The notes under the pieces were generated by a model. That model was not told the DNA's origin and did no database searches. It saw only the letters and a list, made by a program, of their open reading frames with translations. Source: a virus. From it: DNA of 64,000 nt. Below are positions 1,505 through 49,735 of the stretch, in pieces. Where the stretch lies: the IMG/VR virus record IMGVR_UViG_3300025669_000021, positions 37,416 through 101,415 of that record; one strand, 5' to 3'. The first letter of the stretch is position 1; each line of letters starts with the position of its first letter. The position numbers and the translations under genes are program-made.

Positions 1505-1990
1505 ATGCAGAAAATGACTAAAGCAGTGATCGCAGTTGGAATCCTTAGCTTATTCGTGGCCGTTGGGGCATTTGCTGACCGTGCAGATTACGGTATCAGG
1601 CTTCTCCGGGTGAAGGAGATACACAAATTCCCCCCTAACACATCAATCTCGGTTGAGGATCCCATTACTTTTTCGGGTTCTATAGCCCAGGCGGCGTCGA
1701 GAACTTTGACTCCTTCGACCGTTACCGGTGCGGCTACCGTTCTTGGTGTAGAAGCTGGAATGATAATCATGGAACCGTCATCGGCTCACGATTTGACGCT
1801 TACGGCCGGTGTCTCTGGACAGGTTGTCACTCTGTTCAATAACTCCGCAGGATCAACGAACATCACGCTCCTATCGGCGGCAGCTACTCATAGATTCAAC
1901 TCCGATATCGTGTTGTCGCAGTATGATTCTATCACTTTGGCCTATCTTGATAGCAAGTGGTCGACCATTGCATCTTCAACGTACAACTAG
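1505..1990 (+). CDS. Signal-peptide-bearing beta-rich protein in the head module
   Basis: N-term MQKMTK + hydrophobic stretch + AFA cleavage site; RBS AGGAG. Confidence 0.7.
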   Translation: MQKMTKAVIAVGILSLFVAVGAFADRADYGIRLLRVKEIHKFPPNTSISVEDPITFSGSIAQAASRTLTPSTVTGAATVLGVEAGMIIMEPSSAHDLTLTAGVSGQVVTLFNNSAGSTNITLLSAAATHRFNSDIVLSQYDSITLAYLDSKWSTIASSTYN

Positions 1991-2039
1991 GGGATGAACG
2001 GGCTCGGGGCTACCTCGCGGGGCCCCGGGCTTAATCATT

Positions 2040-2333
2040 ATGCCAAAAGAACAAGACAACAACGAGACGAAGAACCAAAAGGCAATACATCTTGCCGAAG
2101 CGTGTAATAGGCTTATGGGTCAAAGCCAGGATTTTAGGTATTTCGTTGAGGAGTTGACCGAAATGCTTCTCGACCAGAGGGACAAGAACGAAGGATTGCT
2201 TGGCGAGTTGGCTATCGTCGGCAAAGGGATGTCCCTGAACATGAAACAGATTTTGCAGATGATCGATAATTCTTCCGCAGTTTTGGTCAGAGCAAGGGCC
2301 GCGGAAGGAAAACGACTTAACGGATTGAAGTAA
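2040..2333 (+). CDS. Small helical protein between portal and scaffold (Bbp19-like position)
   Basis: 97 aa, helical, syntenic position in podovirus head modules. Confidence 0.55.
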   Translation: MPKEQDNNETKNQKAIHLAEACNRLMGQSQDFRYFVEELTEMLLDQRDKNEGLLGELAIVGKGMSLNMKQILQMIDNSSAVLVRARAAEGKRLNGLK

Positions 2334-2444
2334 GAATGAAGTGCACACTGAAATGTCAGAGCCGGGGGGGTAAGAAGGCATACATTTATGAGCCGTCTTT
2401 CCTCGTTGGCAAACTACTAACAGAGCATAGGGAGAAATAGCACC

Positions 2445-3509
2445 ATGGCACACGAAGTACCAATACCAAGACAAGCCCAACAGGCAGCAGAACAGGATGA
2501 GATAGATCAGGCAGCAGAACAAGAGGCCTTGTCACAGCAAGGAACTCCTGCAGAGCCGGTCCTAGATCATGTGATCGAGCAGCCAGAAGAGGATGAACAG
2601 CCAGCGCCCGTAGCGGCTGCAGTTCCCGACCAAGCTACCCTAGCACCCGCACCAGTAGCGGAAGAGGGTGAACCGGTCGAGAGTCTTGTAGACCTGAAAC
2701 GGAGGCTATTAGAGGCCGAGCACAGAAATCGGACTCTACAAGGCATGATCCATTCTCAGAAGCCAGAGGCCGAAGAAATGGCCGCTCTCAAAGATCGTAT
2801 TGCGGAACTGGAGAATAGACCAGAGGAGCACGTAGCTCCCGCGGAGCCAGGAGTAGCAGCGCATTTGAGATACCTCAATAAAGATGAGCGTGAGGCCGTC
2901 GACGGGGAGGAAGGTTCCCTGGAAGTCAGAATGGCTAAAGGTATGGCAGAAGAGGGCATTGAGAAGGTAAAGCGTGAAGCCGCGCAAGAGGCATTAAAGC
3001 TAACTAGGCGTATAGACGCCATAGAACGCCGTCAGGAAGATGACGATTCAGATAGTGCTGTATCTGGGGTTATGGCCCAGGTCGAAGAGTTGATGCCAGG
3101 AGCGATAAAGATTAACTCCGATATTCTCTGGGTTGATTGGCTTGAAGGTGCTGATCCCGAAAGCGCGACAGGAGCAACGTATGGGGCAAAAGGACAGGCT
3201 CTTATGGCGATTGGCGATACCAAGGGTATTGTCGATTTGATGAACAAATTCCTGGCAGACGTGCCCGAGGCGTCAGACCAGATTAAGGCACAGATTCGAC
3301 CCGCAAAGTCGAGCGTAGTGCCAACTGAGGGGAAACCCGTAAAGAAACAGGGTATTCCAGAGTCTAGGGCGGTTGCTTTCTACAAGGCACAGAGGGAAGG
3401 TCGGCTGAAAAACGCTGATGGTTCTCCTATGTCTGCAGAACAGGAAGTAGCCCAAGAAGCATTAATAGATAAGGCCTACGTTGAGGGACGAATCCTAGAA
3501 GGCAGGTAG
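2445..3509 (+). CDS. Capsid scaffolding protein
   Basis: Acidic Pro/Ala-rich N-term, coiled coil, C-term AY.EGRI; directly upstream of the capsid gene. Confidence 0.75.
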   Translation: MAHEVPIPRQAQQAAEQDEIDQAAEQEALSQQGTPAEPVLDHVIEQPEEDEQPAPVAAAVPDQATLAPAPVAEEGEPVESLVDLKRRLLEAEHRNRTLQGMIHSQKPEAEEMAALKDRIAELENRPEEHVAPAEPGVAAHLRYLNKDEREAVDGEEGSLEVRMAKGMAEEGIEKVKREAAQEALKLTRRIDAIERRQEDDDSDSAVSGVMAQVEELMPGAIKINSDILWVDWLEGADPESATGATYGAKGQALMAIGDTKGIVDLMNKFLADVPEASDQIKAQIRPAKSSVVPTEGKPVKKQGIPESRAVAFYKAQREGRLKNADGSPMSAEQEVAQEALIDKAYVEGRILEGR

Positions 3510-3548
3510 TTTCCTGTCGGCGCGTGGGTCTGGAAAGAGAGAGACATT

Positions 3549-47944: not shown

Positions 47945-48393
47945 TTTTGAACAGCAACAAGATTAGGCGTTTGTTCATGTCCGTGGCACTTCCCATGCTG
48001 ACAGACACCACCTATCAATGTCCATCCAGGGAATGGGTTGCTGAATTGTTCCGACAGTTCGATCACGATATGGAGTGGAAGCCACGCAAGGCCGGACTAT
48101 TGCAACGCATCTTCGGGGATGCTCTGTGGTGTTGGACAGAGAGAAACGACTGCGACAATTTTGCCCTGCACTTCATGTCTACAGCCCAGAAGTTGCACAA
48201 GTTCACCGAGCAGCACACGGCGCAGAATGTAGCGGTGGGGGAGGTCTGGTACATGAAGGATATGACAGATTATCACGCAATCAACGTGGTGGTGATTGGG
48301 GAGGAGTCGGTGCTATTCATCGAGCCCCAGGGACCACATTTTGTCGAATTAACAGAAGCTGAAAGAGATAGCATCTCTGAGGTCAGGATTTAG
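47941..48393 (+). CDS. Papain-like Cys protease (MOA lectin C-terminal-like)
   Basis: DCDNFA...HAIN...FIEPQ Cys-His-Glu motif set. Confidence 0.7.
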   Translation: MILNSNKIRRLFMSVALPMLTDTTYQCPSREWVAELFRQFDHDMEWKPRKAGLLQRIFGDALWCWTERNDCDNFALHFMSTAQKLHKFTEQHTAQNVAVGEVWYMKDMTDYHAINVVVIGEESVLFIEPQGPHFVELTEAERDSISEVRI

Positions 48394-48405
48394 AAAGGGA
48401 GAAGG

Positions 48406-48693
48406 ATGGGAACTGCGAATGGAAACAAGGGAATGATGATTGCTCTAGCCGGGGCAATCCCATTGGCGGCACTAGCAACATGGCTGGTTATGGCCGGGAC
48501 AGTATTGGGTCAGGTGAAGGAGCTTGATAGGGATCTCCCAATATTAACGAAGCAGCACCATGCCGATGTCGAGAAATTGACAGAGAAATGCCACAAGACA
48601 GATATGGCAGTCACAGGGATTTTTGCAGAGCTAAGAGCATTGAAAGAATTGGTCGAAAGAATAGACCGGAACGTAACAAGGGGTGATGGATGA
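48406..48693 (+). CDS. Holin-like membrane protein
   Basis: N-term TM helix followed by a coiled coil. Confidence 0.5.
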   Translation: MGTANGNKGMMIALAGAIPLAALATWLVMAGTVLGQVKELDRDLPILTKQHHADVEKLTEKCHKTDMAVTGIFAELRALKELVERIDRNVTRGDG

Positions 48694-49094
48694 AATACTG
48701 GAAACACATAGTAGTCGGGATCGTCGCACACATCATGGCAACCGGATTAATCTTTGCAGGAGCAATGTGGCTCAATTCAATCGAGACAACCAGCGTGGAT
48801 GACACAGGAGTATATGAGTGGACGAATACGACACCTGTTAGCGTCAGTGTCGATGGTGTAATGCTATCGTGGTCGCATCCTATTCCCAACACTTCTTATA
48901 TCGCCGTGGTGTCGCATAGTGCAGCAGGAACAAATCTGCTTGATACAGGAAGCAGCGCAACATCTTTGGGTTCGGTGGTATGGGAGGCTTCCAGTATGTA
49001 TGCCGTCCGAGTGCCTGTTGATGGTGTGATACGGATCTGGTCGGAAGCCACCAATAAATTCAACATCAAGGTTGATGTGTCGAGGCTCCAATAA
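48690..49094 (+). CDS. Signal-peptide-bearing small beta-rich protein
   Basis: MKYWK...GLIFA|GAM; TG...WTN shared with 45705. Confidence 0.65.
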   Translation: MKYWKHIVVGIVAHIMATGLIFAGAMWLNSIETTSVDDTGVYEWTNTTPVSVSVDGVMLSWSHPIPNTSYIAVVSHSAAGTNLLDTGSSATSLGSVVWEASSMYAVRVPVDGVIRIWSEATNKFNIKVDVSRLQ

Positions 49095-49735
49095 TGAATA
49101 AGCCATCTAGGCTATTGATCGGAGTGGTCGGTGCTGTATTGATCAGCATTGTTGCCATGGCCGGGAGCAGGGTGAATGGCAAAGCCCAGGTGGTGTCACA
49201 ATCCACAGATGCAGCAGGAACTTTGCAGGGGTTAGATCCGAGCGGTGCAAATGTCTGCATCACTGAATTCGCAAACGATAATCACAACAGCAAGTTATTT
49301 TCCTATTCTGCTTTGTCTGTCGATCTCGCTGATAATGCATCCTTTAGTGTGCTGCTTATGATCCCGACCAATAAACACTGTCATGCCAACTTTAGTGTGA
49401 CAAGTGCGGGTGCTGCGATTGTTTATGTCTATGAGGGAGCTGTCACGTCAAGTCCAGGGACAGTGAGCATCCCTGTCTGCCTGAATAGAACACAGGTGTT
49501 TGCAGCAGACACTCTGATGTATGGGAATCCAACCGTGTCATCTACAGTAACAGTTATGGCGGTATATTTCTTGCAGGGAGGCGAGAAGCAAGCTGCTGTT
49601 GGTGCTGCTGCTGAATCAGGCACAGAGTTCATACTAGCGTCAGGATCGAATTACTATTTCCGTATGATAAATATTGCAGGTTCAGCAAAGACATCTGCCG
49701 GACAGTTGCTATTTAGTGAAGAGGACAATGATTGA
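49094..49735 (+). CDS. Signal-peptide-bearing beta-rich protein
   Basis: MNKPSR...IVAMA|GSR; YEG, NR, EFIL..G..Y..R..N. Confidence 0.65.
   Translation: MNKPSRLLIGVVGAVLISIVAMAGSRVNGKAQVVSQSTDAAGTLQGLDPSGANVCITEFANDNHNSKLFSYSALSVDLADNASFSVLLMIPTNKHCHANFSVTSAGAAIVYVYEGAVTSSPGTVSIPVCLNRTQVFAADTLMYGNPTVSSTVTVMAVYFLQGGEKQAAVGAAAESGTEFILASGSNYYFRMINIAGSAKTSAGQLLFSEEDND

What the first reader, a model, noticed from the sequence alone, without database searches (positions are those of the whole stretch)
1505..49735. Exported, Thr-Asn-rich virion proteins: a candidate 'secrete, modify, then assemble' system
Seen: at least ten genes embedded in the head/tail operons of BOTH modules start with Sec-type signal peptides (1505, 6623, 12533, 26293, 45322, 45705, 46194, 47096, 48690, 49094). 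They include an 866-aa tail fibre, a second fibre-like protein and a LamG protein. Most are enriched in the TN dipeptide (hand counts: 20 in 866 aa, 10 in 356, 7 in 300, 5 in 282, 5 in 140). Thr-rich neighbours without a signal peptide have only 2 each (nozzle, 694 aa; 56645, 375 aa). Established: tailed-phage fibres normally fold and assemble in the cytoplasm without signal peptides, and some bacterial phyla glycosylate exported proteins at short motifs (e.g. the Bacteroidota D-S/T-x O-glycosylation motif). Inference: these proteins are exported, glycosylated at T-N by host envelope machinery, and attach to particles at or after lysis, giving host-like glycan camouflage or adhesion.
Basis: partly seen in the sequence, partly recalled or inferred. 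Interest (0 to 1): 0.9.

Follow-up and report, generated by a model that had tools for sequence, protein, structure and literature searches.

The report
Exported phage fibres marked by Thr-Asn
In this salt-lake phage DNA, a real tail fibre and about nine smaller proteins in the particle-building operons start with textbook secretion signals and carry three times more Thr-Asn pairs than chance predicts. The same link between signal and motif holds in relatives worldwide, which points to an undescribed modification motif on exported phage proteins.

Summary
All ten N-termini look like Sec/signal-peptidase-I signals. No trained predictor was available.

The window's other proteins show 39 against 36.5.

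The 866-aa protein is a genuine fibre. It has an N-terminal domain shared with signal-less phage fibre and tailspike proteins, and a foldon-like motif.

Three controls tie TN to export rather than to fold or lineage:
- Among 149 distant homologues, TN is 3.05x expectation in 64 with a signal and 1.58x in 74 without.
- Within the shared N-domain alone the ratios are 2.37x and 0.65x.
- Two close relatives each encode a signal-less copy of the domain (TN 0) next to a signal-bearing copy (TN 4 and 5).

TN sites lie in predicted loops and move between homologues. N-x-S/T, the Bacteroidota O-glycosylation motif and Ser-Asn are not enriched.

Export is likely. Modification at TN, probably glycosylation, is plausible but unproven. 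Joining of exported proteins to virions was not tested. The record also encodes a WaaL/PglL-family ligase with TPR repeats.

This scan has already noted signal peptides on phage tail proteins, and TN excess in exported proteins, on other DNA. Host unknown.

The parts
6623..9223 (+). 866-aa tail fibre with a signal peptide (res 1-21, ...VHA|TTT). Domains: N-terminal fibre-anchor beta-sandwich (res 22-145), central domain (about 415-660), foldon-like trimerisation motif (res 644-677), C-terminal domain (715-866). TN 20 against 8.3 expected.
   Evidence: HMMER search: 205 hits falling into three domains. Signal-less homologues P0111 and P0184 pair the same N-domain with PHROG tail-spike or tail-fibre domains. 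Weak foldon match to T4 fibritin chimeras, E 0.085-0.4. The N-domain AF2 model has block-mean pLDDT 94-98 over res 1-110. TN shuffle p 5e-5.
6018..6623 (+). 201-aa virion structural protein without a signal, possibly the tail adaptor (by size and position only). Its stop codon overlaps the fibre's start. It lies next to an N-domain gene in every relative examined.
   Evidence: phrog_437, E 6e-19. Synteny in L085-L092 and L097.
12533..13603 (+). 356-aa signal-peptide protein with no known family. Its start overlaps the stop of a 197-aa signal-less collagen-like protein (11940-12533). TN 10 against 2.2 expected.
   Evidence: (p 5e-5). No hit in Pfam, PHROGs, NCBIfam or PDB.
26293..26664 (+). 123-aa signal-peptide protein, the last gene of the podovirus module. 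It is a paralogue of 45705. TN 2 against 0.7 expected.
   Evidence: BLASTP to 45705, E 2e-3.
45322..45693 (+). 123-aa signal-peptide protein, directly after the head-decoration gene of the siphovirus module. TN 3 against 0.5 expected.
   Evidence: p 0.008.
45705..46127 (+). 140-aa signal-peptide protein, a small beta-sandwich that may be C1q/TNF-like. It has paralogues at 26293 and 48690. TN 5 against 1.4 expected.
   Evidence: Paralogy. Nearest Atlas clusters are 93-100% viral; in two of the three structure rows a 112- or 118-aa protein aligns to residues 22/23-140, the mature part only. The AF2 model has pLDDT 57; BFVD hits include a C1q-like protein and virion structural proteins. This is a lead only.
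46194..47096 (+). 300-aa signal-peptide, fibre-like protein related to residues 568-804 of the 866-aa fibre in the other module. TN 7 against 2.2 expected.
   Evidence: BLASTP E 8e-6; p 0.003.
47096..47944 (+). 282-aa signal-peptide protein with a LamG/concanavalin-like lectin domain. TN 5 against 2.2 expected (marginal).
   Evidence: Pfam Laminin_G_3, E 2e-16; p 0.06.
48690..49094 (+). 134-aa protein with a long N-terminal hydrophobic segment (signal or anchor). It is a paralogue of 45705. TN 3 against 0.5 expected.
   Evidence: BLASTP E 7e-5; p 0.009.
49094..49735 (+). 213-aa signal-peptide protein. TN is not enriched (1 against 0.9 expected).
   Evidence: weak phrog_5335 hit.
1505..1990 (+). 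161-aa protein directly after the portal gene, with an N-terminal signal or anchor. A gene with a hydrophobic N-terminus holds this position in relatives. TN is not enriched (1 against 0.6 expected).
   Evidence: (L089, L090, L092). Weak Phage_depo_C hit, below the cut-off.
57687..63814 (+). Genes after the tail module that may build a glycan: one weak GT-B hit, a SAM methyltransferase and unassigned ORFs. None has a signal peptide. Their link to the TN proteins is unproven.
   Evidence: Glyco_trans_1_4, E 7e-5, below cut-off; Methyltransf_24, E 4e-11. No hits for the remaining ORFs.

Best explanation
These are late-expressed phage proteins of the host-recognition kind: a trimeric tail fibre, a second fibre-like protein, a LamG lectin-like protein and small beta-sandwich proteins.

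Unlike their relatives in most phages, they are made with cleavable Sec signal peptides and so cross the inner membrane of a diderm host. The mature parts have repeatedly gained Thr-Asn pairs in surface loops.

The gain occurs only in exported copies of a given fold. I therefore read TN as a site recognised by an envelope factor that acts on Sec substrates. The most likely factor is a protein-glycosylating enzyme. It could be the host's, or the WaaL/PglL-family Wzy_C+TPR protein that this record encodes 15.7 kb upstream of the window.

The fibre keeps the conserved tail-docking N-domain. The simplest reading is that it still ends up on the particle, which would then happen at the membrane or after lysis.

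Shown: signal-like N-termini, fibre homology, the TN statistics and their coupling to the signal, and loop location in one domain.
Inferred: export, modification, the enzyme, and virion attachment.
For: 1. Signals. There are ten n/h/c-type N-termini with A-x-A-like cleavage sites and supported start codons. In homologues the signal ends 2-4 residues before the first strand of the N-domain. Signal-less homologues start that domain at about residue 3.

2. Fibre identity: and synteny with the adjacent 201-aa virion-protein gene (6018-6623).

3. TN inside this genome: 57 against 19.6 in signal proteins and 39 against 36.5 in the rest.

4. TN across 149 representatives sharing at most 50% identity: 64 with a signal show 918 against 301 (3.05x); 74 without show 218 against 138. 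Mann-Whitney p 2.6e-12.

5. Same fold only (N-domain): 84 against 35.5 with a signal (n 26) and 21 against 32.4 without (n 34).

6. Same genome, same fold: L091 and L092 each have a signal-less 130-aa N-domain with TN 0, followed by a signal-bearing N-domain with TN 4 and 5. A signal-less 972-aa fibre in L097 has TN 1 against 6.2 expected.

7. Sequon-like behaviour. TN occupies about 11 different columns at 11-41% occupancy in signal-bearing members. In signal-less members only one column (60) reaches 10% occupancy (14%). All these columns are loops or strand ends in a model with block-mean pLDDT 94-98. Pro is depleted after N, and charged residues are depleted two positions after N.

8. Background. 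TN is 0.80-0.85x expectation in 363 ORFs from 80 unrelated bacterial loci.

9. Operon setting. The genes abut or overlap structural genes and have the same GC, so they are late-operon genes and not morons.

10. Candidate enzyme. Wzy_C, E 2e-21, plus TPR. Match to a WaaL structure. Four TM helices follow the conserved periplasmic loop, which would put the TPR in the periplasm (crude).
Against: - No trained signal-peptide predictor was run, and there is no experiment of any kind.
- No known modification uses T-N. Ser-Asn is not enriched (12 against 16.5), which is unusual for O-glycosylation.
- The Wzy_C+TPR gene and the glycosyltransferase-like genes fit ordinary O-antigen conversion equally well. 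They were not seen on the (short) related contigs.
- L087 has signal-bearing fibres without TN excess, so signal and TN are separable.
- Two of the ten proteins lack the excess.
- The SP+/SP- comparison is partly confounded by relatedness and domain content. address this only for one domain.
- How an exported fibre would meet a tail built in the cytoplasm is unknown.
Confidence: 0.5

Rival explanations
1. The proteins are exported but are not virion parts. They act in the envelope of the infected cell, for example by masking or destroying receptors, excluding superinfecting phages or preventing loss of progeny on cell debris. TN is still a motif read by the envelope.
For: Signal peptides place the proteins in a different compartment from heads and tails. 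The siphovirus-module set sits between the head-decoration and connector genes, where accessory genes are common. Paralogues are shared between two unrelated virion modules, as expected for portable accessory genes. L091 and L092 keep a signal-less copy of the docking domain that could serve the particle itself.
Against: The 866-aa protein keeps the conserved docking N-domain and sits beside the 201-aa virion-protein gene (6018-6623). In this record it is the only N-domain protein. I found no other long fibre in the podovirus module. The genes are translationally coupled to structural genes.
Confidence: 0.25
2. TN is not read by any enzyme. It is a turn-forming or solubility motif that helps beta-rich proteins fold outside the cytoplasm, or a feature inherited within one phage lineage.
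For: All TN columns in the N-domain are loops or strand ends, and Asn is a good turn former. The flanking preferences look like beta-strand context. Two TN columns (52 and 99) are fairly conserved.
Against: The excess is specific to T-N. S-N, G-N, A-N and N-T are at or below expectation. Exported-like ORFs of 80 bacterial loci show no excess, at 0.85x. Signal-bearing fibres of L087 show none. Most TN columns turn over between homologues.
Confidence: 0.15
3. The hydrophobic N-termini do not lead to export. They are transient membrane tethers or pro-peptides used during cytoplasmic assembly, or the calls are wrong.
For: 48690 and 1505 have long or atypical hydrophobic segments. No trained predictor was available. 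Matrishin et al. 2023 (PMC10367356) suggest that signal-like N-termini on some phage capsid proteins are removed by the prohead protease.
Against: Dozens of homologues share positive n-regions, 10-15-residue h-regions and A-x-A sites placed just before the domain. Coupling of TN to this feature would be unexplained.
Confidence: 0.07

Closest known systems
General O-glycosylation of Bacteroidota (motif D-(S/T)-(A/I/L/V/M/T)) and PglL-type O-oligosaccharyltransferase systems
   Same: A short or loosely defined acceptor site on proteins that have crossed the inner membrane. The enzyme belongs to the Wzy_C/WaaL family, and this record encodes a member of that family (review PMC12645811).
   Different: The motif here is T-N. 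The Bacteroidota motif is not enriched (8 against 11.2). S-N is not enriched. The strong Shine-Dalgarno use (67% of genes) argues, from general knowledge, against a Bacteroidota host. No glycan has been shown.
Podovirus tail fibres and tailspikes with a conserved N-terminal anchor domain (T7 gp17-like organisation)
   Same: An N-terminal docking domain, a gene next to the 201-aa virion-protein gene (6018-6623; adaptor by size and position only) and the nozzle gene, a trimerisation motif, and swapped distal domains.
   Different: The protein is preceded by a cleavable Sec signal and carries a threefold TN excess. There was no sequence match in 50,697 deposited phage genomes. Fold search of the N-domain gave only generic beta-sandwich hits.
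Virion glycosylation in mycobacteriophages by phage-encoded glycosyltransferases (Freeman et al. 2023, from memory; mentioned in PMC11256854)
   Same: Phage genes for sugar transfer lie beside the structural genes, and the particle surface is modified.
   Different: There, cytoplasmic enzymes modify capsid and tail-tube proteins that have no signal peptides. Here the candidate substrates are exported, and the glycosyltransferase assignments are weak.
Signal peptides on Porphyromonas phage genes (Matrishin et al. 2023, PMC10367356)
   Same: Phage genes with Sec signals adapted to the host's signal peptidase.
   Different: Those were capsid, spanin and unknown genes, read as envelope modifiers. 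No tail fibres and no TN motif were reported.

Membership tests
Sec / signal peptidase I signal peptide | Positively charged n-region, an uninterrupted hydrophobic h-region of about 10-15 residues, and small residues at -3 and -1 | tested here: met
   My own heuristic finds these features in all ten proteins. Cleavage-like sites include VHA|T, AMA|G, VVA|G, AQA|S and AFA|D. 48690 and 1505 are less typical.
Sec / signal peptidase I signal peptide | Call by a trained predictor (SignalP), or shown cleavage and export | not testable with these tools
Phage tail fibre with N-terminal anchor domain | N-terminal domain homologous to the N-termini of recognised fibre or tailspike proteins | tested here: met
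   62 N-domain hits. P0111 and P0184 combine this domain with PHROG tail-spike or tail-fibre domains.
Phage tail fibre with N-terminal anchor domain | Gene placed beside the tail adaptor and nozzle genes | tested here: met
   6018-6623 (phrog_437) comes immediately before the fibre, and the nozzle-like gene lies at 9853. The order is the same in 7 related contigs.
Phage tail fibre with N-terminal anchor domain | Trimerisation element | tested here: inconclusive
   Foldon-like residues 644-677 match fibritin chimeras only at E 0.085-0.4.
Phage tail fibre with N-terminal anchor domain | Presence in the virion | not testable with these tools
   This needs particle proteomics.
Bacteroidota general O-glycosylation substrates | Enrichment or presence of D-(S/T)-(A/I/L/V/M/T) in exported proteins | tested here: not met
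   8 observed against 11.2 +/- 3.2 in shuffles.
N-glycosylation substrates (PglB or NGT type) | N-x-S/T sequon in excess | tested here: not met
   Per-protein counts are at expectation. Few TN sites are followed by x-S/T.
WaaL/PglL-family (Wzy_C) ligase, for the 571-aa protein upstream of the window | Wzy_C domain with a conserved periplasmic-loop Arg/His | tested here: met
   Pfam Wzy_C, E 2e-21. R266, R309 and H311 are invariant among 14 relatives. Match to WaaL structure 7tpg, E 4e-4.
WaaL/PglL-family (Wzy_C) ligase, for the 571-aa protein upstream of the window | Transfers glycan to protein rather than to lipid A-core or a growing O-antigen | not testable with these tools
   The only support is a crude topology that places the TPR domain in the periplasm.
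Morons / lysogenic-conversion genes | Own promoter and terminator, intergenic flanks and deviating composition | tested here: not met
   Gaps to the preceding gene are -4 to 66 nt. Only 6623 and 26293 have longer 3' flanks (207 and 222 nt), and six junctions overlap. GC is 0.47-0.49 against 0.49-0.50 for the modules.

The most novel reading that the evidence does not exclude
A lineage of bacteria has an envelope enzyme that modifies Sec-translocated proteins at Thr-Asn. This would be a new sequon, probably for glycosylation.

Tailed phages of these hosts send their receptor-binding fibres and lectin-like accessory proteins through Sec. The proteins are decorated at TN loops in the periplasm and join cytoplasm-built particles only at lysis.

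In some relatives a signal-less copy of the docking domain holds the fibre site until then.
Probability: 0.2. Interest if true: 0.95.

Novelty: categorically new. Interest (0 to 1): 0.8.

Why it matters
Tailed-phage particles are taken to be built entirely in the cytoplasm, and no bacterial protein modification is known to use Thr-Asn.

If the reading holds, it gives three things at once:
- a new two-residue acceptor motif with hundreds of natural substrates;
- a candidate enzyme family to test;
- a new assembly route for phage receptor-binding proteins, with consequences for host-range prediction, phage engineering and glycan shielding of virions.

Even if no enzyme is involved, the TN signature is a simple sequence marker. 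It separates exported from cytoplasmic copies of the same phage domain, and it may help link uncultured phages to host lineages that share it.

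Tried and rejected
- The look-up of encoding contigs.
- Complex prediction. 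The fibre N-domain against 6018-6623 docking test could not be run.

Host identity was not resolved:
- No tRNA genes were found.
- The genome-contig scan with the capsid fusion protein found nothing.
- The scan with the Wzy_C alignment gave only about 30% identical relatives in many phyla, mostly the FCB group.
- The genome search gives no relatives for a virus record, and no taxonomy for loci handles.
- The Atlas hint to Verrucomicrobiota scored only 0.78.

No close relatives were found:
- The fibre, nozzle and capsid-protease single-protein scans of viral contigs found none.
- The fibre gave no tblastn match in 50,697 phage records.
- The word-based homology search found only the fibre itself, and one weak LamG relative.
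- The metagenome scan added 4 loci.

Explanations for TN that I rejected:
- DNA-level motif: all codons are used at TN sites.
- N-x-S/T, S-N and the Bacteroidota motif are not enriched.
- Composition alone.
- A domain-specific structural motif.

Other negative results:
- Fold search of the N-domain gave only generic Ig-like beta-sandwiches.
- The model of the small protein is of low confidence.
- No RNA holder was listed among the sequencing runs.
- Literature searches found no T-N sequon and no Sec-exported tail fibre.

Chimera check: contigs of four independent salt-lake runs cover window 22-42 kb at even depth. No single piece spans the region, so this does not prove one molecule.

Full report
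**Setting**

The window is the last 64 kb of a 101,415-bp linear IMG/VR virus record. The same DNA occurs in at least 18 salt-lake metagenome runs. Nearly all genes are on the + strand. The window holds the following, in order:
- A podovirus-type virion module. It has a portal gene ending at 1484, a capsid gene at 3549-4493, a phrog_437 virion protein at 6018-6623, a nozzle-like phrog_511 protein at 9853-11937 and a 3564-aa giant protein.
- A DNA methylase and an integrase, followed by early genes.
- A lambda-like siphovirus module. It has a portal gene at 40966, a protease-capsid fusion at 42695, a decoration protein at 44926 and a tape measure at 53081.

Contigs from four independent runs cover 22-42 kb at even depth. 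A short repeat near 38.7 kb is joined in those assemblies to the left part of the record. I did not pursue whether the two modules form one replicon, because that is a separate finding.

**Observation check**

All ten ORFs exist at the stated starts. Seven starts have a GGAG-type ribosome-binding site, and three overlap the preceding stop codon.

A simple n/h/c-region rule calls all ten N-termini signal-like. Elsewhere it makes only two other calls, one probably false and one a TM helix, and it calls none of the replication genes. 48690 and 1505 may be membrane anchors.

The statistics are as follows:
- Per-protein shuffles give 57 observed against 19.6 expected (z 9.4).
- TN ranks first of 400 dipeptides in the signal set and 142nd in the other proteins (39 against 36.5).
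- Six proteins are individually significant. 1505 and 49094 are not.
- All Thr and Asn codons are used at TN sites, and 31% of all Asn in these proteins follow Thr.

**What the proteins are**

The 866-aa protein had no word-level relatives, but a full HMMER search found 205. These hits define three parts: an N-domain (res 22-145), a central domain (about 415-660) and a C-terminal domain (715-866).

Signal-less homologues carry the same N-domain at their very start, followed by PHROG tail-spike or tail-fibre domains. Residues 644-677 resemble the T4 fibritin foldon. The gene follows the phrog_437 virion-protein gene in this window and in seven related viral or metagenomic contigs. It is therefore a real fibre.

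The other signal proteins:
- 46194 is related to the fibre's C-terminal half (E 8e-6).
- 26293, 45705 and 48690 are paralogues spread over both modules.
- 47096 has a LamG domain.
- 45705 resembles small proteins from clusters that are almost entirely viral. Some of these align only to its mature part. A low-confidence model matches C1q-like and virion structural proteins.

The signal genes abut or overlap their neighbours and share their GC content, so they are late-operon genes rather than morons.

**TN tracks export**

- Across homologues: among 149 representatives, 64 with a signal have 918 TN against 301 expected. The 74 without have 218 against 138, and several of the high ones are truncated or misclassified.
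- Same fold only: in the N-domain the ratio is 2.37x with a signal and 0.65x without.
- Same genome: in L091 and L092 the capsid proteins are 71-73% identical to the window's. Each contig has a 130-aa signal-less N-domain gene (TN 0) followed directly by a signal-bearing N-domain fibre (TN 4 and 5).
- Long signal-less fibre: the 972-aa fibre in L097 has TN 1 against 6.2 expected.
- Background: bacterial loci give a ratio of 0.80-0.85x.
- Separability: signal-bearing fibres in L087 (GC 43%) have no excess. The motif therefore looks specific to a host lineage.

**Behaviour of the sites**

In signal-bearing N-domains TN occupies about 11 different columns at 11-41% occupancy. All of these columns fall in loops or at strand ends of a confident model (block-mean pLDDT 94-98).

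Across 905 sites, Pro is depleted after Asn, and charged residues are strongly depleted two positions after Asn. Other x-N and T-x pairs are depleted. S-N, N-x-S/T and the Bacteroidota motif are not enriched.

**Candidate machinery**

The record encodes a 571-aa Wzy_C (WaaL/PglL family) protein with C-terminal TPR repeats, 15.7 kb upstream of the window.
- Its conserved loop residues are intact.
- It matches a WaaL structure.
- A crude topology places the TPR domain in the periplasm.
- Its relatives are about 30% identical and spread over many phyla.

The genes after the tail module include one weak glycosyltransferase hit and a methyltransferase. All of this fits O-antigen conversion equally well.

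**Host**

The host is unknown. Shine-Dalgarno motifs precede 67% of genes, which from general knowledge argues against Bacteroidota. A lipoprotein gene lies upstream of the window; its reading as a spanin, and hence a diderm host, is my inference.

**Relation to earlier notes of this scan**

Signal peptides on podovirus tail proteins have been reported many times on other DNA, and later checks gave the export-of-virion reading low odds. Two follow-ups reported a TN excess in Sec-exported proteins, one in a Verrucomicrobial order and one in Brevinematia. Several same-day first-reader notes report TN-rich signal proteins in other phages. I could not test the host-side claims.

New here are the same-fold and same-genome controls, the site turnover, the loop mapping and the co-encoded Wzy_C+TPR gene.

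**Verdict**

Export is likely. A TN-reading envelope factor is the best explanation, with glycosylation the leading guess. Virion attachment after export remains open.

Noticed in passing
L091:9066-10189 and L092:12192-13313: Close relatives of the podovirus module carry two copies of the fibre docking domain in tandem: a 130-aa signal-less stand-alone copy, followed by a signal-bearing fibre. The window's phage has only the signal-bearing one. The stand-alone copy might be a placeholder or a partner for the exported fibre.
   Followed up: partly
window 8552-8653: A foldon-like motif (GYVTEASADGKYYGRKDEAWTDL) lies inside the 866-aa fibre and resembles the T4 fibritin trimerisation domain.
   Followed up: partly
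window 38424-40700: No long ORF lies just upstream of the lambda-like gpW/portal genes, where a large terminase is expected. A Nu1/GpA-like pair instead sits at the far left end of the record (bases 103-2797 of the record).
   Followed up: no
window 38702-38737: A repeat of about 30 nt lies here. In four independent assemblies the contigs branch to sequences found at 16.4-16.7 kb of the record, and depth is two- to three-fold higher. The element is shared between the left part of the record and the window.
   Followed up: partly
window 27337-28003: Depth rises to 81x in one run, with many variant contigs, inside the N6/N4 DNA methylase gene. A conserved methylase segment seems to be shared with other, more abundant organisms in the lake.
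   Followed up: no
window 15593-26287: A 3564-aa protein without a signal peptide closes the podovirus internal-protein block. TN is 4 against 6.9 expected. I did not examine its function.
   Followed up: no
window 11940-12533: A 197-aa signal-less protein with a short collagen-like run (GPQGERGPRGRKGEDGEDG) is translationally coupled to the 356-aa signal-peptide protein. The two products would end up in different compartments.
   Followed up: no
record bases 32667-33311 (upstream of the window; L004:13667-14311): A 214-aa lipoprotein (lipobox LLSGC) has no TN. It is possibly a spanin, which would fit a diderm host.
   Followed up: no
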